A stretch of DNA of 64,000 nucleotides, taken from Candidatus Saccharibacteria bacterium RIFCSPHIGHO2_12_FULL_41_12. GTDB taxonomy: Bacteria > Patescibacteriota > Saccharimonadia > Saccharimonadales > 2-12-FULL-41-12. Location: NCBI GenBank assembly GCA_001790445.1, contig MGCQ01000009.1:150500-214499 (forward strand), given 5' to 3'. Positions 12,446 to 50,838 of this stretch are shown piece by piece. Every line of letters starts with the position of its first letter. The first letter of the stretch is position 1. A model generated the notes under the pieces. That model was not told the origin of the DNA. It made no database searches and saw only the letters and a list, made by a program, of their open reading frames with translations. Both the position numbers and the translations under genes were made by a program.

Positions 12446-13252
12446 GTGAAGTTACTAAACGGCTTAGAAGTCGCCTCTTATATAAAACAACGACAACTCA
12501 AGACAGTCAGCGGACTAGTCCAGAGTCGTGGCATAACTCCAAAACTGGCTATCATTAGGACAAATCCGGACCCAGTCGTCAATAGCTATATGAAGATCAA
12601 GACCAATTATGGCATGGATATTGGAGCATTGGCAGAAGTTCATAATATCGACCAAAGTGAAGCAGTAGAACTCATTAAAAAATTGAACAAAGATGATTCT
12701 GTCCACGGCATAATTGTCCAGATACCTTTGCCTGATCGGTCCCTAACAGAGGACGTCTTAAATGCAGTTTCTTTAGAAAAGGACGTCGATGGGCTCGGAG
12801 AGGGGTCCTCTTTTGAATGTCCAACACCACTGGCAATTCTTTGGCTTTTGGCTGGGTATAATATTGATTTAAGGGATAAAAAAATTCTAATTGTTGGTCT
12901 GGGGAAACTTGTTGGTAAACCGCTGATGGCCATGATGGAGGCTTCTGGATACGATGTATCTGGTGCTGACAAAAAAGTTAAAGATCTTAAAGCTGAGACT
13001 CTGAAGGCAGACGTAGTCATTACTTGTACCGGTGTGCCGGCACTAATAACTAGTGATATGGTCAAACCAAATGCAGTTATTGTTGATGCTGGGGTAGCCA
13101 CCGACAAAAACGGACTGGTTGGTGATGTGGCTGATGACGTCCGGGCGATGCCAGACATCACAATCACCCCGCTCAAAGGCGGAGTTGGCCCACTAACAGT
13201 CACTGCTCTTTATGAAAACTTACTTATAGCGGCTCGTAATCAGCTGGGATAG
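12446..13252 (+). CDS. folD: Bifunctional methylenetetrahydrofolate dehydrogenase/methenyl-THF cyclohydrolase
   Basis: 268 aa, GTG start. Motifs: GIIVQIPLP, KDVDGL, VVITCTGVP, ITPLKGGVGPLTVTAL. Confidence 0.9.
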   Translation: MKLLNGLEVASYIKQRQLKTVSGLVQSRGITPKLAIIRTNPDPVVNSYMKIKTNYGMDIGALAEVHNIDQSEAVELIKKLNKDDSVHGIIVQIPLPDRSLTEDVLNAVSLEKDVDGLGEGSSFECPTPLAILWLLAGYNIDLRDKKILIVGLGKLVGKPLMAMMEASGYDVSGADKKVKDLKAETLKADVVITCTGVPALITSDMVKPNAVIVDAGVATDKNGLVGDVADDVRAMPDITITPLKGGVGPLTVTALYENLLIAARNQLG

Positions 13253-14477
13253 AATGTTCTGCTCGGGCAGAGTGATCATAATTATTTGTTAGATCAAAAG
13301 CCTTTAGAGAAGGATATTTTTCTGTAAGTTGAGCCATAGCCCAGCGACATTCATCGATCGTGCCAACGCACTCGAGTGGTTTTGATTGGTCCATGCCAAC
13401 AAGCATTTTATATGTTTGCACAAGGTCTGGGTCCAAAAGCAAATTTTTCCCACCAAATAATTTCATAAGTTTTGACTCATCGATATAGTTAGCTAGCCCC
13501 AGATAGACAAAGGCGCATTTTGGGCACTTGCCACACCAAAATAATTGGTCCGAACTTTGGACGAAAGCCCTGTTGCAAGAGCTGAATACTCCGCTGTATT
13601 TATCGAAATACTTAGTGAACATTTCGCATATTTGCAGTTCGCTTAAGTTTCTAAGATATGAAAAATATCTGATGCTGTCGCCAAAATTCTCGGCTAAAAT
13701 GTCTTGGAAGTCTTGCTCAAACTCCAAAGATTTTGAATACTGATGGTTAATTTCTATTCCTCGGTAGGTTAGGGTCGGTTCATTGGCAGCAGCTTCGTTT
13801 GAGAAAATGACATCTTTTTTGCCCACTAAAATTGCCAACACAACGCCAATGCTGGCAAAGATTGCAGATACCGGGATATGCCCGTTATATGCTCCAAGTA
13901 AGCTTTTTTTAACAAGTTGTTCGTCTATTTTTCTACTCACAAAACAATGTTGCGTGTTTAGTTTAGCGACCAGAGGCTCGAGTTGCTGCCTGTGACCAAG
14001 TGACCATGTAGCGGTGTCGTGATCTCTTAGTTTTTCAACGGTAACAATTGAATCTTTACCCCCGCCAATTCCGATCAATGCTCCGCTACTGTTAACCTCA
14101 AGTTTCTCTGGCGGGTCACTAGTTACTGGGAAGTTAATTGGCGTTTTCGGATCCAAATTATTGACATAAAAAAACTCACCCAAACCCTTTTGGTAGGTTT
14201 TGGACAAGAAGTCTGCCAAATTTTGATCTACCTCAAGGTTTTTGTAGCTGACCAGGGGCGGCAGATAGGTTTTGTAGTATGAAACACCAGCGATCAAAAA
14301 GGCAACTACGCAGGCCCGATCAAGCGCCTTTTGATCTAGGTTTTTATCAATCTCTACATCAAATTGATATTCTTCGGTAAAATGTAATTGCTCATCGATA
14401 GAATATTTGAAAATGAGCGTCTTAGTGTCCGAGTCAAACGTGTACTCGTCAAAGCTGAATGTTTGATATTGGCTCAT
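13224..14477 (-). CDS. PP-loop-like ATPase-fold protein with C-terminal Cys cluster; candidate MurL-type UDP-MurNAc-L-Ala-L-Glu epimerase
   Basis: 417 aa. GALIGIGGGKDSIVT is SGGxDS-like and CGKCPKCAFVY is a QueC-like CxxCxxC. Its start overlaps the murD stop by 4 nt (14474-14477). The MurL assignment is context-based inference. Confidence 0.4.
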   Translation of the reverse strand: MSQYQTFSFDEYTFDSDTKTLIFKYSIDEQLHFTEEYQFDVEIDKNLDQKALDRACVVAFLIAGVSYYKTYLPPLVSYKNLEVDQNLADFLSKTYQKGLGEFFYVNNLDPKTPINFPVTSDPPEKLEVNSSGALIGIGGGKDSIVTVEKLRDHDTATWSLGHRQQLEPLVAKLNTQHCFVSRKIDEQLVKKSLLGAYNGHIPVSAIFASIGVVLAILVGKKDVIFSNEAAANEPTLTYRGIEINHQYSKSLEFEQDFQDILAENFGDSIRYFSYLRNLSELQICEMFTKYFDKYSGVFSSCNRAFVQSSDQLFWCGKCPKCAFVYLGLANYIDESKLMKLFGGKNLLLDPDLVQTYKMLVGMDQSKPLECVGTIDECRWAMAQLTEKYPSLKAFDLTNNYDHSARAEHSIPADYEPL

Positions 14478-15787
14478 AATTTATTGACAGATTCATTAAA
14501 TTTATCTCCCCGCTCTTGAAAGTTCTTGAACATATCAAAACTAGGGAAAGCCGGGCTGAGCACGACAGCGTCGCCACTTTTCGCAAAACTTTGGGCCAGT
14601 TTAACGATTTCAGAGATGTCTTTGCTACCTGTCACGGTAAAATTACCGTAGCCTGCTTGTTCAAGTTCTCCCGACACTCGCGCACTTGACTCACCAATGA
14701 GCAAAATCTTTCTGATCGATTGACTATTTTTGATGATTTCTTGACACAGTGTGCCTAGATCGAGCATTCTGTCGCGTCCGCCGATGATAACTACTTTTGG
14801 CTCGACTAGTGCGTTAATAGCTGCTTTGCAAGATCCAGGAGCAGTAGAGAATGAGTCGTTATAGAATTTTACGCCGTTGATTTCTCTGACAAGTTCAATT
14901 CTATATGGCAAGTTGGTCATAGTAGTAACAACTTGCCGAATTGCGTCGACGTTTTTATCTATCTGCCAGAAGGCGGTGATAGCGGCGCAGATATTTTGCC
15001 AGTTGTGTTTGCCTATTAGTTTGATCTCGCTAGTGTCGCAAATTTTTTGGTTTTCTACCCCAATCTCTCTGTCGCCACGTACGTTGGCGCCATGTTCGCC
15101 CATATATCCGACAAGTCGTCCTTCGCTTGCGCTGGCAATTTCCTCTGAATTTTCGTTTCCGGCAAAGTATATGGCAAAATCATCTTCACTCTGATGTATG
15201 AATAGTTGTTGTTTTGCAGAAATATATTCCTCCTCGTCCTCGTGCCAGTCTAGATGTTCAGGCTCAACCATAACGCAGACAGCTATATGGGGCGAATATT
15301 TTAGATCAATCAGCTGAAAGTTAGCCAGTTCTATAACTACCCAGTCATCAGGACCAATTTGGTCAATCAACTCTAGTGGGGGAGTCCCAATATTACCAAT
15401 AAGATGCGTTTTGTGGCCAGATGATTCCAGCATTTTGGCTATCAGCGTACAGGTAGTGCCTTTGCCTTTAGTGCCAGTCACACCAATTATATTTTTGGTC
15501 GGACAAACACGGAAGAACTCGTTAGTGTTGCTGGTGACTTTCTCTAGGATATTTGGATTTTCGGGGTTTGCCCGGAGTATTTGGCTGGGGTGAATTATTG
15601 GCGTTCGTACGATAGTGTCATATTGATCAAGATCAGCGATATAGTCAGCACCAAGTTTGCCACTAACACCGTCAGGTAGCGGGATATCAGCGTTGCTATC
15701 TGCAACAGTTATATTGTCCTCTCGCTTTTGCCAATATGCCAGGGAACTTTTGCCTTGACCACCAAATCCCAAAATAACTACGTTCAT
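14474..15787 (-). CDS. murD: UDP-N-acetylmuramoyl-L-alanine--glutamate ligase (MurD or MurD2 type)
   Basis: 437 aa. MNVVILGFGGQGKS is the N-terminal Rossmann region and GVTGTKGKGTTCTLIAKML is the Mur ligase P-loop. The domain order is that of MurD. Confidence 0.85.
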   Translation of the reverse strand: MNVVILGFGGQGKSSLAYWQKREDNITVADSNADIPLPDGVSGKLGADYIADLDQYDTIVRTPIIHPSQILRANPENPNILEKVTSNTNEFFRVCPTKNIIGVTGTKGKGTTCTLIAKMLESSGHKTHLIGNIGTPPLELIDQIGPDDWVVIELANFQLIDLKYSPHIAVCVMVEPEHLDWHEDEEEYISAKQQLFIHQSEDDFAIYFAGNENSEEIASASEGRLVGYMGEHGANVRGDREIGVENQKICDTSEIKLIGKHNWQNICAAITAFWQIDKNVDAIRQVVTTMTNLPYRIELVREINGVKFYNDSFSTAPGSCKAAINALVEPKVVIIGGRDRMLDLGTLCQEIIKNSQSIRKILLIGESSARVSGELEQAGYGNFTVTGSKDISEIVKLAQSFAKSGDAVVLSPAFPSFDMFKNFQERGDKFNESVNKL

Positions 15788-15794
15788 CTAACCC

Positions 15795-15800
15795 ATTATA
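15795..15800 (-). promoter_or_regulatory. -10 box TATAAT, 7 nt before murD ATG 15787
   Basis: The minus strand reads tagTATATAATgggttagATG. Confidence 0.45.
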
Positions 15801-15840
15801 TACTATTTTGCTGATCAAGGAGACATATAATATAACCATC

Positions 15841-15869
15841 TTGACAATAAATAATGCTTGTGCTATAGT
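15841..15869 (+). promoter_or_regulatory. Consensus-like sigma70 promoter
   Basis: TTGACA (15841-15846), exactly 17 nt, TATAGT (15864-15869). ATG 15880 lies 10 nt after the -10, so the leader is only a few nt. Confidence 0.55.
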
Positions 15870-15879
15870 AACTTTAGTT

Positions 15880-16827
15880 ATGTCAGAGATTTTGAGAGTA
15901 GTAGGAGAAGAGATACTTCAAGCAGGAGAAGAGGCACTTCCATATGCTGTAGCGACAGTTGGAGCAATAGGAGGAAATTTTCTCGATCGTATTAATAGAA
16001 AAAAAGCCCAAGGTCAGGCTGAGGATTTTTCTGGTGTCCTTGGATCCCAACATTTACAAACGGATTCAGCTGAAGTTATTCAAGAGAGTAGAATAGACAG
16101 GATAAAAAAAGGAATTGGTGTGATGACCTGTGTTGGAGCAGTAGCGGGTGGTCTAGTTGGAGCTGCTCTTTCATTTGATTATAAAGAACCAACAAATAGT
16201 GCAGAGCCAGTCCAATTAATTGTAGATAGAACAGGCGAAACTCGCACAAAAGATGATGCTAAACCAAAAGAAACAATAGATAGAATTGTATCTGTAATGA
16301 ATGCCAAGTTTGGAGATGATGTCGGAATCCAAGTTGCTTACAATGGGAATGCCAGAAAGATGAGCTACGAAGAACTTAAAAATACTATACCCCAGGGTAC
16401 TGATTCTGTGGCACAAGCTTTGAAGGCAGGCGCATTAGGAGCAAAAGAATCCAATGTTGTAGTTTTAGCATATGGTGACAAAGAAGGCCTCCCTCCTTTT
16501 GATGAAATCAAGGGTGACAAAGCGGAAGAGGACGAACTTACTGTTATAAGCGTAGGTGGTCATTCAGGATCGATGGAAGAATATGCTAAAAAATCTAGTG
16601 GACAGTATTTTGAAGCCAATCCATCAAATGCTGAAGAAGTTGCTGAGAATGTTGCAAAATCAATAGACCCTAAAGCAGAAGACGGCGAAATTGATTTTAG
16701 AATGCCTTTTAGGGACAGGTTAGCTCTGAGCGGACTTGCTGTAATAGGATTCCTAGGAGCCCGAAGTGCTTCACGTCGCAAGAAGATTATCCGACAAGGC
16801 AATAACGTAACCCAGATAGGAGCCTAA
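15880..16827 (+). CDS. vWA-like domain protein with C-terminal membrane anchor
   Basis: I prefer ATG 15880 (MSEILRVV) to the track start 15808. LIVDRTGET is MIDAS-like DxTxT. GTDSVAQALKAG and VVVLAYGDKEG follow the vWA strand order. The C-terminal hydrophobic stretch LALSGLAVIGFLGA is followed by RSASRRKK. Confidence 0.4.
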   Translation: MSEILRVVGEEILQAGEEALPYAVATVGAIGGNFLDRINRKKAQGQAEDFSGVLGSQHLQTDSAEVIQESRIDRIKKGIGVMTCVGAVAGGLVGAALSFDYKEPTNSAEPVQLIVDRTGETRTKDDAKPKETIDRIVSVMNAKFGDDVGIQVAYNGNARKMSYEELKNTIPQGTDSVAQALKAGALGAKESNVVVLAYGDKEGLPPFDEIKGDKAEEDELTVISVGGHSGSMEEYAKKSSGQYFEANPSNAEEVAENVAKSIDPKAEDGEIDFRMPFRDRLALSGLAVIGFLGARSASRRKKIIRQGNNVTQIGA

Positions 16828-16829
16828 AT

Positions 16830-17783
16830 ATGAGTGAATTAGCAAAAAATTTTGAAACAAATGCAACAACGCAATTAAGTGCTGTCATGAAAGATGGTGA
16901 AGCTCACATAATGACAACAATTACCGGAATCGTTGCAGGTGAGAGTATAGTCTACGGAGGCCCTCCAGGTGGTAGTAAGACAAACCTCATGAGAGCTGTA
17001 CCTAAGCTTATAGGAGATATCACTCCTGAAATGGTGGCCGAGCTTTCGCCACTTGCCGATACTACACCAAAAGAAAACGTTGGTTCTGTAGTTGAAGTAG
17101 AAGGTAAGAAAACATATATCCCTGGTGCTATTAGACGTGAGACCAGATTTCTATTGGACGACGATGGTTCGAGGAAGAACCCATATACGCAGGATTCCCT
17201 GTTGGGTGTTAGAGAAGGTGGATATGTGTTGATAGCAGGTGATAAATTTTATGTGGATCTTTTGGCAGATATTCAGACGCTCAATGCCAGCAAACCAGGT
17301 CAGCCAATCTTTAAGCTATCAGAAGCTGGTGCCTCACGTTCAGGAGCTGGTACTATTTTCGGCAAGACAAGTGAGGATACAATGAAAGATCTTTTTGGTC
17401 GTAAATTTATTCCATCTGAAGTTACTGCCATTACTTCAATAGAAGAGCTAGAGCAATTGATAAAAGAGGCCAAAGATTATAGAGGTACTTCAGACTCACT
17501 TGACACAGCTGCAGCTAAAATGACGGCAAGAATTAGAGAAGCTCACGAGGAAATACTTGGATATTCAGAAGCAGGTGGTCGTATGGCCAGACAGCTCGGT
17601 AATTTAGTGGCAGCTAGATTAGTCCTTTCTAATGAAAAAGACGGATCAAGTGTTGGAGAGATGAATGCACTGCACCTTGCTGCTGGTATGATCATAGATG
17701 CAAGAGTCAGTGGTCTATCACCTAAGCCTGAGGAACACGCAGAAGCTATCCGTCAAAGAGCTGGCGTAGAACAAGTATTATAA
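16830..17783 (+). CDS. MoxR-like AAA+ ATPase, divergent
   Basis: 317 aa. Walker A is GESIVYGGPPGGSKTNL. Walker-B-like RFLLDDDGSR. LLGVREGGYVLIAGDKF and QTLNASKPGQPIFKLSEAGASRSG are collinear with the MoxR blocks LLEAMQE..V and ATQNP.E..G...LPEAQLDRF. SD AGGAG lies upstream. Confidence 0.55.
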   Translation: MSELAKNFETNATTQLSAVMKDGEAHIMTTITGIVAGESIVYGGPPGGSKTNLMRAVPKLIGDITPEMVAELSPLADTTPKENVGSVVEVEGKKTYIPGAIRRETRFLLDDDGSRKNPYTQDSLLGVREGGYVLIAGDKFYVDLLADIQTLNASKPGQPIFKLSEAGASRSGAGTIFGKTSEDTMKDLFGRKFIPSEVTAITSIEELEQLIKEAKDYRGTSDSLDTAAAKMTARIREAHEEILGYSEAGGRMARQLGNLVAARLVLSNEKDGSSVGEMNALHLAAGMIIDARVSGLSPKPEEHAEAIRQRAGVEQVL

Positions 17784-17802
17784 TAATTAGCTAGGGGCAA
17801 CC

Positions 17803-18618
17803 ATGCGAACAAATCAAGAAATATTGCCTTTGACTCAAGCAAAGCTTGAGGAAGTAGACGCCCAGACTATAGGAATAGGTAGTCGACTGAATACTTCGGA
17901 ATTCATGCCGATGGGAATTGTTCCAGTATTTTCTGAACAGTACGATCCAAGTGTTCATAATCCGTCTCAAATAGATTATAGAAGCTCGATGGCTATAGCA
18001 ACTGGTGAGCCTTATGTCACCCATAAGTTTGGTATAGTGCCTCTAAGAGTAGAGGTAGTTTCAGGAAGGGTATCAAAAAATGATATCTCCGAAATAGCAG
18101 AACTAAAACAGTCATCTGTAAATACGATCACAAATTTAGTCGAGGCTTCTTTGCCGCGTATGGGCGATCATGTTGTTAATCATGGAGCTGTGTTTGAAAG
18201 AGATATATTAGGTAATCAAGAGCGGGATGCGGATATCCGTATCGTAATAGGTGATTTCGCAAGTGTTGGCGCTGGGCTTGCCAGGCCATCATATGAAGCA
18301 ACCCCTACGGTGCTTGTTAAGGTCAATCACATATTAGAGCGTGATGTGCCGCCAAATATAGGAACTGTGCAACTTGCAGCCAACCAAGAGCCTTTAGATA
18401 CTTCTAATTCAGAGAAGTTACAGAACTATAATCACAATCTAGAATTAGTGCACCAAGAACAGGTATCAAGATTAGAAAAGCTTGGTTTTGTTGTTGCCTC
18501 AACTGTCATTGATCCTAGGACTACTCGTGAGAGTGGTGCAATAGTAGGCTTGTCAGTTGATGATTTGGACAAGGATTTAGCCGACGCAGTACAGGCTGTA
18601 GTGTACCGCCAAAGGTAA
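17803..18618 (+). CDS. Hypothetical protein (third gene of the vWA/MoxR group)
   Basis: 271-aa ORF, co-directional, 19 nt after the MoxR-like gene. No motif recognised. Confidence 0.4.
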   Translation: MRTNQEILPLTQAKLEEVDAQTIGIGSRLNTSEFMPMGIVPVFSEQYDPSVHNPSQIDYRSSMAIATGEPYVTHKFGIVPLRVEVVSGRVSKNDISEIAELKQSSVNTITNLVEASLPRMGDHVVNHGAVFERDILGNQERDADIRIVIGDFASVGAGLARPSYEATPTVLVKVNHILERDVPPNIGTVQLAANQEPLDTSNSEKLQNYNHNLELVHQEQVSRLEKLGFVVASTVIDPRTTRESGAIVGLSVDDLDKDLADAVQAVVYRQR

Positions 18619-18643
18619 GCACTAGCAGTAATATAAAATAGAC

Positions 18644-18672
18644 TTGACAATACATCTACGCACTGCTATAAT
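18644..18672 (+). promoter_or_regulatory. Perfect-consensus sigma70 promoter
   Basis: TTGACA (18644-18649), 17 nt, TATAAT (18667-18672). A roughly 70-nt leader with SD GAGGAG precedes ATG 18749. Confidence 0.65.
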
Positions 18673-18748
18673 AACAATCAAATCCTTAAGTTGAGGTGGA
18701 GCAAGACTTACAGGTGGAAGAGCAATAATAAGTTTTCGAGGAGTTTAT

Positions 18749-19924
18749 ATGTCAGCAGAATTAGGAACAAGAGTAATGGACGCAGTACGCAATCCTAGAG
18801 CAACAGTAGCACTAGTTGGTGTGATGTCAGCAATGGCTTTATCTGGTTGTTTAGGTATTGGTGAAAAAGACGAGTCAGCTAAAGTTAAACAGGATGCTCA
18901 ATGCGGAAAGGTTGATGGCTTCACAGGTATGGACATGGACGATTTCGGTCTTAACGAAGAGCGAGTTCTTCCAAAAACAGAAGAAGATACCCAAGGTGAA
19001 TTTATAACAGAAGTTTCATCTCTAGCTGTGATCATGGACAATGATGACGAAAATAAGGATGTGTATGCTTCATCATTGGCTGCTCTATATTCTGTCATAC
19101 ATTCAAGCCCTAAAGACAAAGATGGCTTTGTAGACCCTAACGGCAAAGATCTAAATGTTTCTTATCAAGAAGCTCTAGATACTATGTTCCCAGGTGATGA
19201 ATTTGATAAAGAAGCTACAGTAAAACTTTGTCAGGGTGTATCTGACTATCTTGTTGAGAACACCGACGAAGCTGGAGCTAAGGATATTAATCTTCTTGTA
19301 GGAGAACTAAAGTTTGACCCTGAAGGTGACGACCCTGAAGCTCTAAGGATTAAAAAACTTGTCAAAGCTGAAGTAGATCTAAATAATGTACTTGTTGTTA
19401 AAGATTCTAATGGGAATAAAGTGCTTGCTTATATAACTGAAAATGACGAAGGTGAAGTTAGAGTATTTCTACCAATAGACCCAAGCAAGGGTGCAAAAAA
19501 TAATAAAGCCCACAAGGGCAAGGCTAAAGGCCAAAGACAGACTGGCGCACAAGGCGGTGGTGGTTCTGGTCGAGATGGCGGAACTGGTGGTGGCAAAGGC
19601 GGTGGCGAAGGCGATGGCTGTGGTGGAAGTGGTTGCGGTAAAGGCGACAGAGGAGGTGACAACGGCGGCGGAGATGGCTGTGATACAAATTGTGGTGGCG
19701 ATGAAAAAACCCCAGGCAAAAACCCCCCAGCACAACCTCCAGAGCAGCAACAACCTCAACCACAACCAGAGCCTACTCCAGAACCACAACCAGAGCCTCA
19801 GCCTGAACCAAACCCAAATCCAAAAGGTGATGACAATACTCCTCCAGCACCATCTATATTGTTACCACTTTTGTTAGCAAAAAGGGTTCGATACAACTCA
19901 AAAGCCTTTAAAAGGGATAATTAG
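18749..19924 (+). CDS. Lipoprotein with acidic domain and Gly-rich/Pro-rich low-complexity tail
   Basis: 391 aa. Signal peptide with lipobox MALSGC. Gly/Cys tract GGGGSGRDGGTGGGKGGGEGDGCGGSGCGKGD, then PQPEPTPEPQPEPQPEPNPNP. The C-terminus is hydrophobic then basic (ILLPLLLAKRVRYNSK). Confidence 0.6.
   Translation: MSAELGTRVMDAVRNPRATVALVGVMSAMALSGCLGIGEKDESAKVKQDAQCGKVDGFTGMDMDDFGLNEERVLPKTEEDTQGEFITEVSSLAVIMDNDDENKDVYASSLAALYSVIHSSPKDKDGFVDPNGKDLNVSYQEALDTMFPGDEFDKEATVKLCQGVSDYLVENTDEAGAKDINLLVGELKFDPEGDDPEALRIKKLVKAEVDLNNVLVVKDSNGNKVLAYITENDEGEVRVFLPIDPSKGAKNNKAHKGKAKGQRQTGAQGGGGSGRDGGTGGGKGGGEGDGCGGSGCGKGDRGGDNGGGDGCDTNCGGDEKTPGKNPPAQPPEQQQPQPQPEPTPEPQPEPQPEPNPNPKGDDNTPPAPSILLPLLLAKRVRYNSKAFKRDN
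19544..19825 (+). repeat. Low-complexity coding repeats (GGN tract, then CCA/GAG/CCT Pro-Glu-Pro-Gln repeats)
   Basis: Directly visible: ggcggtggtggttctggt...ggcggtggcgaaggcgatggc, then ccacaaccagagcct repeated. This generates the four antisense or off-frame shadow ORFs at 19429-19877. Confidence 0.7.
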
Positions 19925-19937
19925 TAATAAGGAGAAT

Positions 19938-21038
19938 ATGACTATGGAACTAAAGAACATTTTAAAAAGAACAATAGTAGCATCAATAATGCTGTTTACA
20001 GCAGTATCTATAATAGGCTCAGGCGGAACAGTATCCGCTATTCCTTACCAAGCTGGCAATAACAACGGTACTACCTACCCAGCATTTAACATCTTTACAG
20101 GGACACCTAGCGAAGGTGACGAAAGTGACTTTTTCCGAGGTAAAGAAGAGACTAACCCAGGTGCTTCAACGAACGTTGTTAACAGCGCTTGTGCAGATGG
20201 CACACGAATGACTCTACGAGTTTACGTACACAACGGTGCAAACCCAGATCAGAACCAAGGTGGTTCTGGCCCAGGTGTAGCTCACGGCACAAAGGTACGT
20301 GTACAACTTCCTGGTGGACCAACAAGTAGCTTCAACCCAGCAGCAGTAGTTAGCGCTACAAACGCGTCAACAGTTAGCGATAACATGACAATTAACTGTG
20401 GTGGACGTAATGTTAATCTAAGTTACGTTGCTGGATCTGCTAGACAGTTTAGCGTTCCTGGTGGGACACAAGGTCTTAGCGATTCTATCGTGACTACAGG
20501 TGCTCCAATAGGTACTTATTCACCTAATGGTGACATGTGGGGATGTTGGGAACAAAGAGTTTGGGTTACATTAACTGTAGTGGTACAAGCTCCTCCAGTG
20601 GTCCAACCATCTCTAGGTGAATGTCGTTCAACAGATGTTAACGCAGAGTCTAACAGACGTGTTACTGTGAACATCAACAACGTATTCGTTAGCAACGCTA
20701 CAATAGTAGGCTACAGAACTGACTACGGTGACGGAACAGTTATCAACACCCAGACTTCTAACCACACATACGCAGCTGACGGTAATTACACAATATCGTC
20801 AAGCGTACAGATACGATTCGCAGATGGACGAACAGAGTGGGTAACATCAGTTGGTTGTGCTCGAAGTGTTACCTTTGAAAACGGACAACCCCCAGTTGTG
20901 ACTCCTCCAACAACTCCAACACCTAGCGCTCCATTGGTTCTACCTAACACAGGTGCTGGTAGTGTTGTAGCGATATTCGCTGGAGTTACTGGTTTGAGCA
21001 CATTGGCTTACTCAGTAGTTGCACGAAGATTTAGCTAA
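19938..21038 (+). CDS. LPXTG cell-wall-anchored surface protein with PKD domain
   Basis: 366 aa. Signal peptide. PKD-like DYGDGTVINTQTSNHTYAADGNYTISSSV. The C-terminal sorting signal is LPNTG, a hydrophobic stretch, then RRFS. Confidence 0.8.
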   Translation: MTMELKNILKRTIVASIMLFTAVSIIGSGGTVSAIPYQAGNNNGTTYPAFNIFTGTPSEGDESDFFRGKEETNPGASTNVVNSACADGTRMTLRVYVHNGANPDQNQGGSGPGVAHGTKVRVQLPGGPTSSFNPAAVVSATNASTVSDNMTINCGGRNVNLSYVAGSARQFSVPGGTQGLSDSIVTTGAPIGTYSPNGDMWGCWEQRVWVTLTVVVQAPPVVQPSLGECRSTDVNAESNRRVTVNINNVFVSNATIVGYRTDYGDGTVINTQTSNHTYAADGNYTISSSVQIRFADGRTEWVTSVGCARSVTFENGQPPVVTPPTTPTPSAPLVLPNTGAGSVVAIFAGVTGLSTLAYSVVARRFS

Positions 21039-21825: not shown

Positions 21826-21900
21826 GGTCTCATCGTCTAACGGTTAGGACACCAGGTTTTCATCCTGGCAATAGGGGTTCGATTCCCCTTGAGATCACCA
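21826..21900 (+). tRNA. tRNA-Glu (anticodon UUC), CCA encoded
   Basis: Hand-folded cloverleaf of 75 nt. Acceptor GGTCTCA/TGAGATC (one G-U), D stem GTCT/GGAC, anticodon stem CCAGG/CCTGG with loop TTTTCAT, 4-nt variable region, T arm AGGGG-TTCGATT-CCCCT, discriminator A plus CCA. Confidence 0.9.
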
Positions 21901-34634: not shown

Positions 34635-35046
34635 TGGTGGAGCTGGTGGGTATTGCACCCACGTCCATCGGTTTTACTTTGACTGGTCTTCTACATATTT
34701 AGTTTATTTACATATCTTTGAGGGTACCGGCTAAACAAACAAAACGATATCTTCGCATTTCTCATTGTCTTAGAGAATTCCGTGGAGAAAAGCACAAAAT
34801 TCTAGCAACCAGATAATATAACACGATTTTGATCTATCTGGTGTCGATCAAATCATGGTTTAAGACAAGCTTAAACTTGCGTAAGCTGGTGTGCTGATAG
34901 AAGCAACAAAATTATTAACCTTGTCGTTCATAGCATCAGCTATACGCTGAGTAAATGTTTTTGCATTTATTCAGTTTGTCTATAACGCTGACAAGCGATA
35001 TGCGAACCAATCTGTAAAAGTCCAATGTCGAGCTTAAATCAGCCCC
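34635..35046 (-). ncRNA. ssrA: tmRNA (SsrA), about 412 nt
   Basis: The minus strand begins GGGGCUGAUUUAAGCUCGACA... and ends ...GGACGUGGGUGCAAUACCCACCAGCUCCACCA. The acceptor stem is GGGGCUG/CAGCUCC with a G3:U70 pair, followed by ACCA. The T-arm-like helix is GUGGG-UGCAAUA-CCCAC. An extended -10 gTGcTATAAT (35056-35061) lies 9 nt upstream of the 5' G. Confidence 0.85.
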
Positions 35047-40389: not shown

Positions 40390-41175
40390 TTGAAAGTCAA
40401 TAGCTCAGGTCGTGATATAATTAATTACGAATTCGCTAATGATTATCAGTTGAACGAAAGGGTGTGGGGGATGCCAATTACGCCGACTAAACAAACCAAA
40501 AAAAATAGCAGAAAAGCTAGTAAATCACTGAGTTGGAATAAATATTTTAAGAAATTGTTTTATTATCTAAGCAAACCTTTTGTTGGCTACAAACACTTGT
40601 TGTCCAGAAAGAAAAAAACCACCATATTTCTAACCATTATTTTGGCTCCTATACTCATTTATGCAAGCCTAGTGGCCATAGACTACATTCAATTCAAAAG
40701 GGTAGAGTACATTATTAATAAAATCAACCAAGAAACCATCAAGGAGCTTGGCCAACCAGAGAACTATGGCGCTAGCGGATCATGTGGTTATGCTAATGAC
40801 CTGTACAGGAAAGGTTTGCCAAGTTGTGGTTATGACGGGGGTTTAACATATACAGTCAAAGATGAACAACAAGCTACAGAATATGCAAAGAAATATGAGC
40901 AAATCGTTATTAAAAGCGGGTATTTTAGAGATTATAAATACTACGACCCAATTAAATTTCCAAAAACATTAAAAGGTAAGTATGACGCTGATTCATCTTT
41001 AAGCGTATCTGTATCTCTATTTCCACAAACTGGAACAAAATGTAATTTTGGAATGGGGTACATGACAACAAATAAAACGACTACAGACACCAAGAGCCCT
41101 CATTTAGTTAATTTATCGACAGGATGCTATAAATCCGGCACCCACTGGCAATTTTACAAAGTTCTTACCCCATGA
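40390..41175 (+). CDS. Hypothetical membrane-anchored protein
   Basis: 261-aa ORF. It has a basic N-terminus, one TM (TIFLTIILAPILIYASLVAI) and a Cys-containing extracytoplasmic domain. The real start may be the internal MPITPTK. It overlaps the next gene by 4 nt. Confidence 0.4.
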   Translation: MKVNSSGRDIINYEFANDYQLNERVWGMPITPTKQTKKNSRKASKSLSWNKYFKKLFYYLSKPFVGYKHLLSRKKKTTIFLTIILAPILIYASLVAIDYIQFKRVEYIINKINQETIKELGQPENYGASGSCGYANDLYRKGLPSCGYDGGLTYTVKDEQQATEYAKKYEQIVIKSGYFRDYKYYDPIKFPKTLKGKYDADSSLSVSVSLFPQTGTKCNFGMGYMTTNKTTTDTKSPHLVNLSTGCYKSGTHWQFYKVLTP

Positions 41176-44100
41176 AGAGCTTCGGGCTAGCACGCTCACA
41201 AGTTCTATTATTGACAGGAGCTATACTATTTACCTTAATATCATTAATCACATTGTCACCTGTTGCACATGCAGTCACTAACACATGGGTAGATGGTAGT
41301 CAGCCAGAGCTAGTAAAGGGGGAAGACTACACCCCAGGCACCAATACTTACACATGGCAATCCGCCGGTAACGTAGAGTGTCACTCAGATTCATTCAGCT
41401 ACTATAAATACGAATGGAATAGTCTTTTTAGACGAAATGAGCTTAAGCTGAAGACATTTAACGACCCATGCACCACATCTAATCGATTAGGAGTATATGG
41501 TCAATACATCGATCCATTCGTTGGTGCTTCTTTCCCATATGCGTATAGATCATACGCCGGATATTCAGCCGTCCCGACCAATCCTCTCCTAATGTTCGCA
41601 GACAGCAGGTTCTTTAGTTCTAGTTCTCCAACGATGCTTTATTCCCCAGCGTCGTCAGTCGCAGAGTATGGGGGCATAGCTCCAGTATCATCGGACAAAC
41701 CATTTGAGCTGGAGTATAAATTTGCGACTACGCCACCACAATCACCATATCAAGACAAGCAAGGCAAACCTTTGCCCATTCATGCCATGAACTATTCAAG
41801 CAACGGACAGTGGATGATCGCTGAAGTATTGGGCGCAGGAATAGTCAGGATTAATCTAACAACTAGCCAAGTTCAGCTAATAGATACAGTATACGGTACT
41901 TATGGGCAAGGATTTACACCCTCAATGCAGTTGGCGATCAGTGACGACGGCAACTCCGCTATTTTAAACGAAAAAGTCTATGACTTGGCTACTTGCCAAG
42001 CTTCTCCTTTTACTCTCTATGCATCAAATAATGTGGTTCAGGGTTGCAGATCACGAAATATGCAGAGCCTGTTTTACCAAAGTTTTAGTAATTACGGCGG
42101 TATCTCTGGGCTTAAATTTGACGGAGATAATAAAACTATTAGGGGTATTGTTACAGCGAAAGATAGCGCTGGCGTCAGAAAGAGTAATTATATGTCGCTG
42201 AGTGTGGCTGGGCATACGCCCCAGAAATATAATTATCTAGCTTTGGGCGATTCGTTCGCTAGTGGTGAAGGGGCATATAACTATCGGGCGGGTACGGACG
42301 AGCCAAATAATCGTTGTCACCAGTCGGCCAAAGCTTATTCTGAGATAATCTCTACCCAGTTGGGGCTGAGTAGTCATCATACTGTGGCATGTAGTGGTGC
42401 CAAACTCATTAATATATTACATAATTACGATGAGGACTATGCCCTAAAGAGTAACAGCAGAGAAATTTATTACAACATTAATGAAAAACAGTCGAAAGGG
42501 AAAGAAGATCAAGATGCGTATAATAATGAAATATATAGCAACTTCCTTCCTGGTTATCGTCAACAAATCCGCCATGTAGAAAAGTACAAACCGGATGTTG
42601 TCACAGTATCTGTGTCAGGTAACGATATTGGATTTGCAGGTAAAATCAACATTTGTATTACCAGGTCAACAACTTGTTTTTCCCAGCCTTCAGACAGAGC
42701 TCAGATATTTGAAGAGATCAAGAACCAATATGATCCACTTAAACAAACCCTTCAAGCCATAAAAGACAAGGCATCACCAGGTGCAAGAATTTATGTTTTG
42801 GGATATCCGAAATACTTTCCTGAAGGTGGGGGGTCTAATTGTGCAAAAAACGCTTCATTCGACGACCAAGAACGAAAACTTGCCAATGACATGGTCTCTG
42901 ATCTCAACCAAATGGTTTTGAGAGCAACCCAGTCCGTAGGTGTCAGCTATATAAATGTCGAACAGTCTATGGCTGGCCACTATCTTTGTGGGCAAGCTTC
43001 AAAAGAAGCTTTCAACGGTCTAACCGCGGGTAACGATGCTATTAAAGGCATCGGCTACCCAATAGGCAAAGAATCGTATCATCCTAATGCTTTTGGGCAC
43101 CAGATATTCAGAGAAGAGGTTCTAAAGCAGAGTCAGACATTTTCTCTAAACAACCCTCCCCCAAATGCGTCTATCTCAGAAAACGATATCTCCTCTAAAC
43201 TAACTGCCAGCCTCAGCCCTAGCGATCTGGCTAACATTCCGAATCTACCGATTGCCTATAGTAATCAATATATGGCCCCTGATCTAGTTTATCTCCAGGG
43301 AGGCGGTAATCAATTTAAATTAGAATACGACAACAATCAGAGCATAGTTCTGTCAAATTCTAGATATACTGCGAAAATTCATTCTGATCCGACATACCTC
43401 GCTACTATTGACTCAGATGAGAATGGAAATCTTTCATCAGATATTGTTTTGCCGACAAATCTAGAGCCTGGGCTACACACTCTGCACATAACTGGACCAA
43501 CCAAAGACAACAAAACCTTGGACATGTATAAGACCGTCTATGTTGCAACCTCGGAGACAGACGCTGATGGAGACGGAACTCCAAACGACCAAGAAAAATG
43601 CTTAGTTAATGAGCCAGCCAACGCAGATGAAGACGTGGATGGTATAGATGATGCTTGTGACCCAGAGATTATCAAGTTGTCAGCTAACCCAGATCTAGAT
43701 CCACTCCCGCCACCAGACCAAGTTTCACCTCAAGTTATTGGGCAACCCAGCCGGACACCAGACCTAAACGGTTGGTATAACAGAGACGTATTTATCAACT
43801 GGTCAGCCACAGACCAAGACCCCTCCAGCGGGACTCCGACTCAACCACCATCAACCACAGCTGATCAAGAGGGTGAACATCAATACAGTTCTGCCAGTTC
43901 TTGCGACCCTGCAGGTAATTGTGCTGTCGGTAATTACACTCTTAAGCTAGATAAAACAGCACCAATAATCTCTTATACAATTAGCCCTACGCCGAACAAC
44001 AAAGACTGGAATAACCAGTCATTAATTGTGACTTTTTCCTGTCAAGACTTGGTCAGCGGAGTCCAGTCGTGCTCTCAACCCATACAAGTTAACGCAGAGG

Positions 44101-46741: not shown

Positions 46742-47242
46742 ATGAATAAAAAAGAACAACCAGTTTTTAAGTTAAGTGATCGTATCTTGACAAATATTGA
46801 TTTGGCCAGAGCGATCCGACAGACTAAACAACTTGATGATTATTTTCATCAAAATAATCTTCGTGGTGGGGGTCAACCGACTGCCATATCAAAAGCAGGA
46901 CGTGTTGTAGAAGATTTAGCGCGTGACAATAATCTTTCCATTCTTGAGAAGAAAGACAGGAAACTACTTCTTAAACAGTTGGCAGTAATACAGGAGCATG
47001 CGCCCGTGGTGCATTTTAGCTTTCCTTCGGAGCCTTCACGTGGGGCGCTAGCTAATATTGTCGGTTGGCTGAGGAATAATGTAAATTTTTACTGTCTTGT
47101 CAGCGTGGGACTTGAGCCAATTATCGGCATTGGCTGCATTGTTCGCACAGAGAATAAAATCTTTGACTGCAGTCTTAAAAATCGGCTGAACGGCAACAAA
47201 GATCTGCTTAAGCAAGTTATACAAAAGGCAACAAAGTCGTGA
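46742..47242 (+). CDS. atpH: F-type ATPase subunit delta (OSCP)-like protein
   Basis: 166 aa. The C-terminal half, VHFSFPSEP...[31 protein letters not shown], follows the OSCP pattern (V.SA..L......V...VDP.LIGG..V..G....D.S....L). Confidence 0.5.
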
Positions 47243-48665
47243 GTGAAAACCAGACCAATTTCCAGAAAATTATAGATAGCGGTAAGCCTGTTGGTGAAGT
47301 TATCGGAGTTGATAAGTTTTTAGTCAAGGTGAAGGGTTTGCACCCAGTTCAGATACATTCACTTGTAATGTTTGAAGATGGCAGTAAAGGCATAGTCAAA
47401 CAAGTTGATGAGCAAACAGTTTCGGTCTTACATCTAGGAGACGAGACAGTTCAGAGAGGTTCTTTGGTCGGGGTCCAGCATCAAGAACTAGTGACCAAAG
47501 TAGGTAAAGAATATATTGGTAGGGTGGTCTCAGTCATGGGTAAACCGCTTGACGGCAAAGGCCCGATTGTGGCAGATGGAACATGGCCAGTTTTTTCTCC
47601 TGCTCCACCGCTTTGGAGCCGCAAACTTCTGGACAAACAACTTGATAGCGGAGTGACGACAGTTGATTCAATTTTTCCACTTGTTCGAGGCCAGAGAATA
47701 GCTGTTTTGGGAGATAGTAAATCCGGCAAAACGACGCTGGCAACCCAACTTGCCATCAACCAAAAAAATACTGATCAGATAGTCGTTTATTGCATGATTG
47801 CAAAAAGGCGAAGTGATATAGATGCAATAATCACAAAATTAGAGGCTACCGGAGGAATTGAGTCAGCTATCGTCGTTGTATCAACTATGTTTGAATCTCT
47901 GATAATGAGTTATTTAGCGCCGTACGTCGCTGTATCTATGGCAGAATATCTTTGGCAAAAATGTGACCAAGATACGATTATTATTTATGATGATTTGACT
48001 TCTCATGCACATGCCTGTCGAGAGATCGCGCTTTTATCTGGGACCAGCCCGGGTAGAGACTCATATCCTGGTGATATGTTTTATGCGCACTCAAGTTTGT
48101 TGGAGCGCGCCGGAAGGCTTGAGAGTAATGGGAGTTGTTTGACGAGTATACCTATTGTATTAGCTGCAGGAGGAGATATCACAGCTTATTTGCCCACTAA
48201 CATTATGTCTATAACAGATGGTCAGTGGATTTTGGACATGGATGTTTTTAGAAGTGGTGTGCGTCCTGCATTTAGCATTGGGCTGAGTGTGACACGTGTG
48301 GGTGGAGTGGGTCATAACAAGCGACAAAAGCACATAGCAGCCTCGCTTATGAAGGTTTTAGCGTTATATCGTGAAGCAGAAGAATTTTCTCACTTTGGGT
48401 CAGAACTTACACCAGAGTCAAAAGCTGCTCTAGAGCTGGGAAAGAATATTTTTGCCTTGTTAAGTCAAGGACCAACAGACGTGTACAGTACTTACGCTCA
48501 GCAACTCATGCTTGACATAGTTATGGAAGCTGAAGCAGGTCTAAAGATTGATATACCTAAGCTTAAAAGTCTTGCTAACGAGTATTCTGAAAAAATCCAA
48601 AAGGATGAAGATTATGATAAAGTCAGGGACAATCTCAAGAAAATGATACTGGTGGAGGTTAAAAA

Positions 48666-48669: not shown

Positions 48670-50829
<2,160 letters not shown>

Positions 50830-50838
50830 AAATATTAA

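What the first reader, a model, noticed from the sequence alone, without database searches (positions are those of the whole stretch)
13224..15787. murD translationally coupled to a PP-loop/Cys-cluster protein: possible MurD2-MurL route to D-Glu in peptidoglycan
The Mur ligase (GVTGTKGKGTT) overlaps by 4 nt a 417-aa protein of unknown family. That protein has an ATP-pyrophosphatase-like GGGKDS loop and a QueC-like CGKCPKC zinc motif.

In Xanthomonas oryzae a MurD paralogue (MurD2) adds L-Glu to UDP-MurNAc-L-Ala. An adjacent protein, MurL, which at its discovery resembled no known enzyme, then epimerises the L-Glu in an ATP/Mg-dependent reaction, replacing glutamate racemase. An adenylating PP-loop fold would fit an ATP-dependent epimerase. 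I cannot confirm homology to MurL from memory.
Basis: inference. Interest (0 to 1): 0.55.

Follow-up and report, generated by a model that had tools for sequence, protein, structure and literature searches.

The report
MurD2–MurL D-glutamate operon in Saccharibacteria
This is a two-gene operon from an uncultured Saccharibacterium (CPR) that most likely builds the D-glutamate of the cell wall by first attaching L-glutamate and then flipping it with an ATP-using epimerase, a known but rarely reported alternative to glutamate racemase that turns out to be common in this lineage.

Summary
A 437-aa Mur ligase (14474..15787, minus strand) overlaps a 417-aa ORF (13224..14477) by ATGA. The 417-aa protein is a MurL homologue: NCBIfam MurL E=3e-96 nearly end to end, plus precomputed Pfam MurL_N and MurL_epimerase_C hits. 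A high-confidence model of its core matches QueC (Foldseek E=1e-6, TM 0.72) and other PP-loop ATP pyrophosphatases. GGGKDS and four cysteines are invariant in 80 homologues.

The strongest evidence is comparative. In related Saccharimonadales-type loci, the slot between the ligase and folD holds either murL or a bona fide glutamate racemase. The choice co-varies with ligase Glu-pocket residues. At E. coli position 348, Arg goes with MurL in 25/25 loci and Lys with MurI in 32/33. At position 422, Phe goes with MurL in 87/87 and Tyr with MurI in 31/31. The window has Arg and Phe. MurL–ligase fusions occur in several phyla.

No murI or dat lies in about 81 kb around the operon; the rest of the genome could not be checked. 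This is a new member of a known pathway, in a lineage (CPR, at least 580 species genomes) absent from the published distribution.

The parts
14474..15787 (-). [quoted passage not shown]
   Evidence: Pfam Mur_ligase_M and Mur_ligase_C; TIGR01087 at 292 bits. Catalytic K115/N138/E157/H183/K198 equivalents are conserved. Glu-pocket residues are in the MurL-linked state.
13224..14477 (-). [quoted passage not shown]
   Evidence: NF041275 MurL E=3.2e-96. Precomputed Pfam MurL_N + MurL_epimerase_C. AF2 model pLDDT 94.7.
14474..14477 (-). ATGA stop/start overlap (translational coupling of ligase and epimerase)
   Evidence: Read directly. The identical -4 overlap occurs in 60 of 80 genome loci.
15452..15484 (-). 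Ligase ATP-binding P-loop GVTGTKGKGTT (residues 102-112)
   Evidence: It aligns with E. coli MurD G-S-N-G-K115-S-T.
14768..14770 (-). Ligase Arg340, equivalent to E. coli MurD Lys348 and X. oryzae MurD2 Arg358 (stereospecificity determinant)
   Evidence: Alignment to 1e0d. Mutagenesis reported in PMC8788868. Arg goes with MurL in 25/25 loci and Lys with MurI in 32/33.
14519..14521 (-). Ligase Phe423, equivalent to E. coli MurD Phe422
   Evidence: Best discriminating column: Phe in 87/87 MurL-linked and Tyr in 31/31 MurI-linked relatives.
14049..14066 (-). MurL PP-loop-like motif GGGKDS (residues 138-143), between strand 133-136 and helix 141-149
   Evidence: Invariant in 80/80 homologues, including proteobacterial and fused ones. 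Topology from the model. Aligns in register with QueC SGGQDS.
13515..13577 (-). MurL Cys motif C301-x13-C315-x2-C318-x2-C321 (QueC-type, predicted structural Zn site)
   Evidence: C301, C318 and C321 are in 80/80; position 315 is Cys in 64 and Asp in 16. QueC/QatC have the same C-x(n)-C-x2-C-x2-C zinc site.
13368..13370 (-). MurL Cys370 in the invariant KP(L/F)ECVG motif, a candidate catalytic thiol (inference)
   Evidence: Cys in 79/80 homologues; the one exception is a gap. No functional test.
15788..15879 (.). Divergent intergenic region upstream of the ligase; TATAAT ends 9 nt before the ligase ATG
   Evidence: Sequence read. The strong plus-strand promoter-like site at 15841..15869 serves the divergent gene; no minus-strand site was called here.
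12446..13252 (+). folD, a conserved convergent flank overlapping the murL 3' end by 29 nt; marks the syntenic slot
   Evidence: Pfam THF_DHG_CYH. The same flank appears in MurL-type loci and MurI-type loci.

Best explanation
This is a two-gene murD2-murL operon that supplies the D-Glu of the peptidoglycan stem peptide without a glutamate racemase.

Step 2 (inferred from homology to characterised MurL): MurL converts the terminal L-Glu to D-Glu, consuming one ATP and releasing AMP.

Proposed mechanism of step 2 (fold shown here, chemistry inferred): MurL's core is a QueC-like PP-loop ATP pyrophosphatase. The invariant GGGKDS loop binds ATP-Mg and the enzyme adenylates the Glu alpha-carboxylate. 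This acidifies the C-alpha proton, possibly through an oxazolone. A base, for which invariant Cys370 is a candidate, inverts the centre. Hydrolysis of the D-acyl-adenylate makes the reaction one-way. The C301/C315/C318/C321 cluster is probably a structural zinc site, as in QueC. The extra N-terminal domain of about 125 aa probably binds the UDP-MurNAc-peptide.

The ATGA overlap couples synthesis of the two enzymes. In some lineages they are fused into one polypeptide.
For: MurL homology is nearly full length: NF041275 E=3.2e-96, with Pfam MurL_N + MurL_epimerase_C.

Published biochemistry of Xanthomonas and Micromonospora MurD2/MurL shows an L-Glu ligase followed by a unidirectional epimerase that uses ATP/Mg and produces AMP.

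Fold: the core model (pLDDT 91.4) hits QueC 3bl5 at E=1e-6, probability 1.00, TM 0.72. The next hits are NcsA, TtuA, YcfA, TrmU and GMP synthetase. GGGKDS and C301/C318/C321/C370 are invariant in 80 sequences from CPR and Proteobacteria. PP-loop enzymes act by AMPylating their first substrate, and QueC/QatC carry the same Cys4 zinc motif.

Linkage: the ligase is adjacent to MurL in 77/80 genome loci, 60 of them with the same 4-nt overlap. Single-ORF fusions occur in L073, L075, L081 and L084, and in P0121, P0128, P0173, P0174 and P0199.

Ligase pocket: the four published MurD2 positions are E/R/P/F here. In close relatives the ligase-folD slot holds either murL or a TIGR00067-positive glutamate racemase. 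Arg348 goes with MurL in 25/25 loci and Lys348 with MurI in 32/33. All top discriminating columns lie in the Glu-binding C-terminal domain.

No murI or dat lies in the window or in about 17 kb of flanks.
Against: No biochemistry exists for any CPR member.

The window MurL scores 322 bits against the 700-bit equivalog cutoff. That cutoff also excludes Alpha-/Gammaproteobacterial and Bdellovibrionales MurLs at 443-487 bits.

The ligase passes the generic murD (D-Glu) equivalog model.

Three of the four published MurD2 signature states (E182, P414, F416), and the non-Lys at position 319, are also found in MurI-linked relatives, so they do not discriminate in this clade.

The R/K association rests on about four evolutionary switches, so the loci are not independent events.

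The PP-loop relationship is not detectable by sequence profiles.

The rest of the genome was not searched for murI.

The roles of Cys370, the zinc site and the N-terminal domain are inference only.
Confidence: 0.85

Rival explanations
1. The enzymes work as MurD2 and MurL, but the genome also has a glutamate racemase or D-amino-acid transaminase elsewhere. In that case this operon is a redundant or conditional route rather than the sole D-Glu source.
For: Only about 81 kb of the genome could be examined. At least one Saccharibacterium is reported to have a working MurI (title of Penalver et al. 2024, cited in PMC11974145). One K348 ligase sits next to MurL (L166).
Against: In relatives murI and murL occupy the same slot as alternatives, and neither of the two scans found both at one locus. 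No murI-like sequence occurs in 660 kb of MurL-flanking DNA from 80 genomes. A MurD2-type ligase barely uses D-Glu in the characterised system, so free D-Glu would have no entry point unless a second MurD exists. Only one MurD-like gene is in the window.
Confidence: 0.1
2. The ligase is an ordinary D-Glu-adding MurD. The 417-aa protein is a QueC-like PP-loop enzyme with a different job (nucleobase or tRNA modification, or another peptidoglycan-precursor modification) that merely travels with murD.
For: The ligase exceeds the TIGR01087 murD cutoff. MurL is below its equivalog cutoff. One JGI record names a homologue as QueC (P0118). The fold is QueC-like.
Against: The match to the MurL model is nearly full length and includes the MurL-specific N-terminal domain. 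There is no significant sequence-profile similarity to QueC. Fusions to the ligase occur in several phyla. MurL is mutually exclusive with murI at the same locus, with compensating changes in the ligase Glu pocket. This explanation leaves the D-Glu source unaccounted for.
Confidence: 0.04
3. The pair performs ligate-then-epimerise chemistry on a different residue or acceptor, for example a stem peptide with Ser at position 1 or a position-2 residue other than Glu. [quoted passage not shown]
For: CPR peptidoglycan chemistry is essentially uncharacterised. The window ligase has unusual residues at some pocket positions, such as Arg at the E. coli 346 equivalent where relatives have Phe/Tyr.
Against: Residues that contact Glu in E. 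coli MurD are conserved or conservatively changed: Ser415 in 72/75, Phe422 in 69/75, and Lys to Arg at 348. The alternative partner at the same locus is specifically a glutamate racemase.
Confidence: 0.03

Closest known systems
MurD2/MurL of Xanthomonas oryzae (XOO_1320/XOO_1319), with orthologues verified in Micromonospora and Salinispora (Feng et al. 2017, as reviewed in PMC8788868 and PMC5808125)
   Same: The two genes are adjacent. The ligase is MurD-like with Glu/Arg/Pro/Phe at E. coli positions 182/348/414/416. The partner is homologous to MurL over nearly its full length, with the same invariant motifs. The proposed chemistry is the same: L-Glu ligation followed by an epimerisation that converts ATP to AMP.
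   Different: The host is a CPR Saccharibacterium, not on the published distribution list. Sequences are distant: 322 bits on the Xanthomonadales model, and 36-39% identity to the proteobacterial MurLs fetched here. The gene order is ligase then murL with an ATGA overlap, whereas the proteobacterial and Peribacteria loci fetched here have murL first. No activity has been measured.
QueC (7-cyano-7-deazaguanine synthase; B. subtilis 3bl5) and QueC-like PP-loop proteins (YcfA, QatC)
   Same: The Rossmann-like PP-loop core is shared (Foldseek E=1e-6, TM 0.72 on the QueC chain). A glycine-rich xGGxDS loop follows strand 1. The C-x(n)-C-x2-C-x2-C cysteine motif is present. The chemistry begins with adenylation of a carboxylate.
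   Different: No significant sequence-profile similarity. The loop is GGGKDS rather than SGGxDS. MurL has an extra N-terminal domain of about 125 aa and a longer C-terminal helical region with an additional invariant Cys. The adenylate is resolved by stereoinversion and hydrolysis, not by attack of ammonia. MurL is not a member of the QueC family.
Classical MurD + MurI (glutamate racemase) module, as found in sister Saccharimonadales-type loci (L092-L095 and 32 metagenome loci)
   Same: It occupies the same chromosomal slot next to folD. The ligase is 45-52% identical to the window's. The end product is the same.
   Different: The racemase acts on free glutamate without ATP. That ligase has Lys348, Tyr422 and Thr321. 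murI is on the opposite strand and coupled to folD. The window has murL in place of murI.
TtuA/NcsA-type PP-loop enzymes with an Fe-S cluster
   Same: PP-loop fold hits at E=2e-4 to 5e-4, with conserved cysteines near the active site.
   Different: Those cysteines hold a [4Fe-4S] cluster used for sulfur transfer. The MurL cysteine spacing matches the QueC zinc site instead. Which metal MurL binds, if any, is untested.

Membership tests
[quoted passage not shown] | Near full-length sequence homology to the curated MurL model | tested here: met
   NF041275 E=3.2e-96, 322.5 bits, protein residues 3-387 on model positions 6-396 of 447.
[quoted passage not shown] | Score above the NCBIfam equivalog cutoff (700 bits) | tested here: not met
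   322.5 bits. The cutoff is lineage-specific: MurL-ligase-linked proteins from Gamma-/Alphaproteobacteria, Bdellovibrionales and Peribacteria score 408-487 and also fail it.
[quoted passage not shown] | Two-domain Pfam architecture MurL_N + MurL_epimerase_C | tested here: met
   Precomputed hits PF26299 + PF26298 on the exact protein. The local Pfam copy lacks these models and gave no hit.
[quoted passage not shown] | Genetic linkage to a MurD-like ligase | tested here: met
   ATGA overlap in the window. Adjacent in 77/80 genome loci. Fusions.
[quoted passage not shown] | ATP/Mg-dependent, AMP-forming, unidirectional L-to-D epimerisation of the terminal Glu | not testable with these tools
   This is a biochemical property, known only for the Xanthomonas, Micromonospora and Salinispora enzymes.
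[quoted passage not shown] | Host genome lacks murI and D-amino-acid aminotransferase | tested here: inconclusive
   None in the 64-kb window or about 17 kb beyond it. The slot that holds murI in relatives holds murL here.
[quoted passage not shown] | Mur ligase architecture with intact catalytic residues | tested here: met
   Pfam Mur_ligase_M/C. K115, N138, E157, H183 and K198 equivalents are invariant in 75/75 MurL-linked ligases, including the window's.
[quoted passage not shown] | Arg at the position of X. oryzae MurD2 R358 (E. coli K348) | tested here: met
   Window Arg340. Within the clade, Arg goes with MurL in 25/25 loci and Lys with MurI in 32/33.
[quoted passage not shown] | Glu at the position of MurD2 E197 (E. 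coli D182); Pro/Phe at P433/F435 | tested here: met
   Window has Glu, Pro and Phe. These states also occur in MurI-linked relatives, so they do not discriminate in this clade.
[quoted passage not shown] | Preference for L-Glu over D-Glu | not testable with these tools
   Requires an enzyme assay.
PP-loop ATP pyrophosphatase superfamily (QueC-like) | Rossmann-like PP-loop fold | tested here: met
   Core model against PDB: QueC 3bl5 E=1e-6, probability 1.00, TM 0.72, rmsd 4.8 over 217 columns. Next come NcsA, TtuA, YcfA, TrmU and GMP synthetase. The full-length model gave only weak hits.
PP-loop ATP pyrophosphatase superfamily (QueC-like) | SGGxDS PP-loop after strand 1 | tested here: met
   A variant, GGGKDS, lies between strand 133-136 and helix 141-149. 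It is invariant in 80/80 and aligns in register with QueC SGGQDS.
PP-loop ATP pyrophosphatase superfamily (QueC-like) | Detectable sequence-profile membership in a PP-loop Pfam family or QueC | tested here: not met
   No PP-loop family was hit by any of 48 members at E<=1. hhalign against E. coli QueC gave probability of about 1%. A profile search of PDB sequences returned only spurious PurH hits.
PP-loop ATP pyrophosphatase superfamily (QueC-like) | Cys4 zinc site of QueC type | tested here: inconclusive
   The sequence pattern C301-x13-C315-x2-C318-x2-C321 is present and conserved and matches the QueC/QatC pattern. Metal binding and 3D geometry were not tested.

The most novel reading that the evidence does not exclude
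In Saccharimonadales the D-Glu supply module next to folD is dimorphic. Lineages carry either murI with a Lys348/Tyr422/Thr321 MurD, or murL with an Arg348/Phe422 MurD2. The MurD2-MurL route would then be a major, unreported way of making cell-wall D-Glu across a large part of the CPR (at least 580 species-level genomes, plus Peribacteria, Moraniibacteriota and others). It would help explain racemase-less CPR genomes. The natural covariation would map the determinants of MurD stereospecificity more finely than the published mutagenesis. MurL would be an offshoot of the QueC-type PP-loop fold that has been turned into an adenylating, hydrolysis-driven epimerase.
Probability: 0.6. Interest if true: 0.6.

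Novelty: new member of a known kind. Interest (0 to 1): 0.5.

Why it matters
The MurD2/MurL bypass of glutamate racemase has been described as confined to a few proteobacterial and actinobacterial genera, and promoted as a narrow-spectrum antibiotic target on that basis. Finding it in hundreds of Saccharibacteria and other CPR genomes changes that picture, and so changes what inhibitors of it would hit, including members of the human oral microbiome lineage.

Standard annotation passes these ligases through the murD D-glutamate ligase model and would label them D-glutamate ligases, which gets the stereochemistry wrong.

The murI/murL dimorphism at one locus gives a natural map of the ligase residues that set Glu chirality.

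Assigning MurL's core to the QueC-like PP-loop fold gives a concrete, testable mechanism for an enzyme that the 2018 and 2021 reviews describe as lacking recognisable domains.

Tried and rejected
(1) tblastn with E. coli MurI gave one hit, at 61398..61529 (E=0.005). It lies in frame inside alaS (61341..63272), so I rejected it as chance.

(2) The local Pfam copy gives no hit for the 417-aa protein. The MurL Pfam families appear only in precomputed annotations.

(3) Sequence routes to the PP-loop claim all failed. phmmer and a profile search against PDB sequences gave only spurious PurH hits. hmmscan of 48 members found no PP-loop family. hhalign against E. coli QueC gave probability of about 1%. 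The full-length model gave only weak Foldseek hits. Removing the N-terminal domain was what made the fold match clear.

(4) I first treated non-Lys at E. coli position 319, Glu182, Pro414 and Phe416 as MurD2 signatures. I withdrew this when the representative search showed the same states in MurI-linked relatives. Positions 348, 422 and their neighbours are the ones that discriminate.

(5) I rejected the NCBIfam 700-bit cutoff as a functional boundary after calibrating it on other phyla.

(6) Penalver et al. 2024 (MurI of Ca. Saccharimonas aalborgensis) is not in the library, so only its title is used.

(7) The Tn-seq paper and the Patescibacteria review contain nothing on D-Glu supply.

(9) P0051, on a contig of about 734 kb, turned out to be environmental rather than a cultivated strain.


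Full report
**Observation.**
One is a 437-aa Mur ligase at 14474..15787, and the other is a 417-aa ORF at 13224..14477. The junction reads TTATGAGCC, so the ligase stop codon and the next start codon share ATGA at 14474..14477. The quoted motifs are all present:
- GVTGTKGKGTT at ligase residues 102-112
- GGGKDS at residues 138-143 of the 417-aa protein
- CGKCPKC at residues 315-321 of the 417-aa protein

The pair is flanked upstream by a divergent block of unannotated genes. Downstream lies a convergent folD (12446..13252) that overlaps the 3' end of the second gene by 29 nt.

**Source organism.**
The exact 417-aa protein occurs on ENA metagenome contigs of 92.5 to 219 kb. Its named homologues are Candidatus Saccharimonadales, in the CPR/Patescibacteria. 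The best GTDB species representative is only 56% identical in this protein.

**What the 417-aa protein is.**
[quoted passage not shown] The match has E=3.2e-96 and 322.5 bits, covering residues 3-387 on model positions 6-396 of 447. Precomputed Pfam annotation gives MurL_N + MurL_epimerase_C; the local Pfam copy lacks those models.

The score is below the model's 700-bit equivalog cutoff, but that cutoff is specific to Xanthomonadales. Ligase-linked MurLs from other groups also fail it:
- a Gammaproteobacteria MAG: 443 bits
- an Alphaproteobacteria MAG: 458 bits
- a Bdellovibrionales MAG: 487 bits
- a Peribacteria MAG: 408 bits

Homology to MurL is therefore secure. Assignment as an isofunctional enzyme rests on the further evidence below.

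**What is published on the pathway.**
Two reviews by the discoverers describe it (PMC8788868; PMC5808125).
- X. oryzae lacks murI and dat.
- XOO_1319 (MurL) then epimerises the terminal Glu in one direction only. It uses one ATP with Mg2+ and forms AMP.
- MurL is said to lack known conserved or cofactor-binding domains. Adenylation of the alpha-carboxylate was proposed as the mechanism.
- The stated distribution is Xanthomonadales, a few Alphaproteobacteria and Micromonosporaceae, with low-similarity orthologues in cyanobacteria, a fungus and an amoeba. CPR is not mentioned.
- No paper in the searchable library joins MurL or MurD2 with Patescibacteria, PP-loop or QueC.

**Fold of MurL.**
An AlphaFold2 model built from 48 homologues is confident (pLDDT 94.7, pTM 0.93). 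It shows three parts:
- an N-terminal beta/alpha domain (residues 1 to about 120)
- a Rossmann-like domain beginning with strand 133-136, then the GGGKDS loop, then helix 141-149
- a cysteine-rich helical C-terminal part

Foldseek with the whole model gave only weak hits. Even so, the highest-probability targets were PP-loop enzymes. A second model of residues 125-417 (pLDDT 91.4) gave a clear answer. The top hit was B. subtilis QueC 3bl5 (E=1e-6, probability 1.00, TM 0.72 normalised to QueC, rmsd 4.8 over 217 columns). It was followed by NcsA, TtuA, QueC-like YcfA, TrmU/MnmA and GMP synthetase.

Conservation across 80 MurLs, including proteobacterial and fused ones, supports this:
- GGGKDS is in 80/80.
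- C301, C318 and C321 are in 80/80.
- C370 is in 79/80.
- Position 315 is Cys in 64 and Asp in 16.

The spacing C301-x13-C315-x2-C318-x2-C321 matches the structural zinc site C-x(n)-C-x2-C-x2-C described for QueC and QatC. PP-loop enzymes characteristically AMPylate their first substrate (PMC13376578).

Sequence profiles do not detect the PP-loop relationship. MurL therefore works like a QueC-type PP-loop enzyme but is not a member of that sequence family. It fits the published AMP stoichiometry and the proposed carboxylate adenylation.

**The ligase: first test, and a correction.**
The reviews report that MurD2 differs from E. coli MurD at four positions: D182E, K348R, A414P and L416F. The E197D/R358K double mutant switches MurD2 to D-Glu use. 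E. coli K319T gains some L-Glu use.

Aligned to E. coli MurD 1e0d, the window ligase has Glu, Arg, Pro and Phe at those four positions and Phe at position 319. Among 75 MurL-linked ligases from genome loci:
- position 182 is Glu in 72
- position 348 is Arg in 70
- position 319 is never Lys
- the catalytic residues are invariant

A search of 1.84 billion representatives then showed that several of these states are not specific. Non-Lys at 319 and Phe at 416 are nearly universal among the 150 closest relatives, and Glu at 182 is common (66 of 150). In contrast, 118 of the 150 have Lys at 348. Those three states are therefore clade features, not MurD2 markers.

**The decisive comparison.**
I looked up genomic contexts for both ligase types.
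- Four Lys348 ligases, 45-52% identical to the window's, are each followed by a convergent gene of 215-229 aa and then folD.
- That gene is a glutamate racemase. Two were scanned, and both pass the TIGR00067 equivalog cutoff (157.7 and 154.7 bits against 146.65) and carry the DSGVGG, ACNT and GCTHY motifs.
- An Arg348 ligase is followed by murL with the 4-nt overlap.

A metagenome scan with a mixed alignment gave 80 further loci:

| Ligase residue 348 | MurL downstream | MurI downstream | Other | No room on contig |
|---|---|---|---|---|
| Arg | 25 | 0 | 0 | 4 |
| Lys | 1 | 32 | 10 | 4 |

Fisher's exact test gives p=1.5e-15. However, an NJ tree with parsimony implies only about four switches, so the loci are not independent events.

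The columns that best separate 87 MurL-linked from 31 MurI-linked ligases all lie in the C-terminal Glu-binding domain:
- E. coli position 422: Phe in 87/87 versus Tyr in 31/31
- position 348: Arg in 83/87 versus Lys in 31/31
- position 321: Ser/Ala/Thr versus Thr in 31/31
- positions 333, 346, 350, 352, 413 and 423 also discriminate

The window ligase has Arg340 and Phe423, the MurL-linked states. The same chromosomal slot thus holds one of two alternative D-Glu modules, and the ligase pocket changes with the choice. This is what one expects if the MurL-linked ligase takes L-Glu.

**Linkage and fusion.**
In 80 genome loci the ligase is adjacent to MurL in 77.
- 66 have the order ligase then murL, and 60 of those have the identical -4 overlap.
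- 11 have murL first. These are Peribacteria, Moraniibacteriota, another Patescibacteria MAG, Proteobacteria and Bdellovibrionales.
- Four of the 11 are single ORFs without stop codons: L073, L075, L081 and L084.

Five representatives are fusions in the opposite order, ligase then MurL (P0121, P0128, P0173, P0174, P0199). All five have Arg348. Fusion in both orders is strong evidence of consecutive function.

**murI and dat.**
tblastn with E. coli MurI and IlvE found nothing real in the window. The only hit is a chance match inside alaS. About 17 kb beyond the window's ends has no PF01177 or PF01063 gene. Neither does 660 kb of MurL-flanking DNA from 80 genomes. The rest of this genome could not be reached.

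At least one Saccharibacterium has a functional MurI, according to the title of Penalver et al. 2024. I could not read that paper. This is consistent with the dimorphism found here.

**Distribution.**
Most are Saccharimonadales. Among the ligases nearest to the window's, the MurL type is a large minority: 29 Arg against 47 Lys in the metagenome sample.

**Mechanism proposed.**
- Shown here: gene structure and coupling, MurL homology, the QueC-like PP-loop fold, the invariant motifs, and the covariation of ligase pocket residues with MurL or MurI.
- Taken from published biochemistry of homologues: L-Glu ligation, then unidirectional epimerisation that converts ATP to AMP.
- Inferred: adenylation of the Glu alpha-carboxylate at the GGGKDS site, stereoinversion by a base (Cys370 is a candidate), hydrolysis of the D-adenylate as the irreversible step, a structural zinc at the Cys cluster, and substrate binding by the N-terminal domain.

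**Verdict.**
This is a new member of a known pathway, in a lineage where the literature I could search has not reported it. Two additions are worth following up: the murI/murL dimorphism with covarying ligase residues, and the assignment of MurL's core to the QueC-type PP-loop fold. Databases already recognise the MurL family, and some JGI records carry the epimerase name, so the basic identification is not new. Interest is moderate.

Noticed in passing
L092:7310-8778, L093:7316-8826, L094:6340-7805, L095:3580-5051: In the MurI-type relatives, murI lies on the opposite strand to the ligase, directly downstream of folD. It overlaps folD by 4 nt in L092, L093 and L094, and sits 2 nt from it in L095. 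The alternative modules are therefore coupled to different neighbours: murI to folD, and murL to the ligase.
   Followed up: partly
L073:3989-6301, L075:3977-6084, L081:3986-6490, L084:3902-6496; P0121, P0128, P0173, P0174, P0199: Single-polypeptide fusions of MurL and the ligase exist in both orders. MurL-ligase occurs in Patescibacteria UBA4473, Peribacteria, Moraniibacteriota and an alphaproteobacterium. Ligase-MurL occurs in five representatives of 849-881 aa.
   Followed up: partly
P0196, P0200, P0226, P0230: Four relatives of the ligase are 718-912 aa long, with the ligase at the C-terminus and an N-terminal extension of about 270-470 aa. The extension is not MurL (no phmmer hit at E<=1e-5). 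Its identity is unknown.
   Followed up: no
L016:2019-3317, L070:3917-5317, L076:3168-4535: Three MurL genes have no adjacent ligase. L070 (Peribacteria) sits next to pyruvate:ferredoxin oxidoreductase subunits. L076 sits next to a V/A-type ATPase catalytic subunit.
   Followed up: partly
L166 (metagenome locus): This is the single exception to the rule: a ligase with Lys at position 348 (and Asp182, Ser321) that is nevertheless followed by MurL. Three of the 75 MurL-linked ligases from genome loci also have Lys348.
   Followed up: no
L110, L114, L139-L141, L146, L152, L161, L163, L176: Ten Lys348-type ligases have neither murI nor murL immediately downstream. Most are followed by folD. Where these genomes get D-Glu was not examined.
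   Followed up: no
window 15788..15879: On the minus strand a perfect TATAAT ends 9 nt before the ligase ATG. No obvious -35 element or Shine-Dalgarno sequence is present, which suggests a very short or absent leader. The promoter scan did not call it.
   Followed up: partly
window 14474..15787; ligases of L074, L077, L079: The window's ligase and all three other MurL-linked ligases tested pass the NCBIfam TIGR01087 'murD, D-glutamate ligase' equivalog cutoff (292-328 bits against 212). Automated annotation would therefore probably assign the wrong substrate stereochemistry to these ligases.
   Followed up: yes
window 61341..63272: The alanyl-tRNA synthetase is only 643 aa, with catalytic and tRNA_SAD domains. 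It appears to lack the usual C-terminal region.
   Followed up: no
window 15880..21038: A run of five plus-strand genes diverges from the ligase. Four have no Pfam hit, including a Gly/Pro-rich low-complexity protein at 18749..19924. The fifth is a PKD-domain protein with a C-terminal hydrophobic anchor-like tail (19938..21038).
   Followed up: no
window 34635..35046 (-) and 21826..21897 (+): A tmRNA gene (Rfam 87 bits) and a single tRNA gene. No rRNA genes are in the window.
   Followed up: no
window 41172..45167: A 1331-aa ORF with an N-terminal hydrophobic segment, followed by several small membrane or secreted-looking ORFs and then the F-type ATP synthase genes (47239..51144). Not examined.
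   Followed up: no
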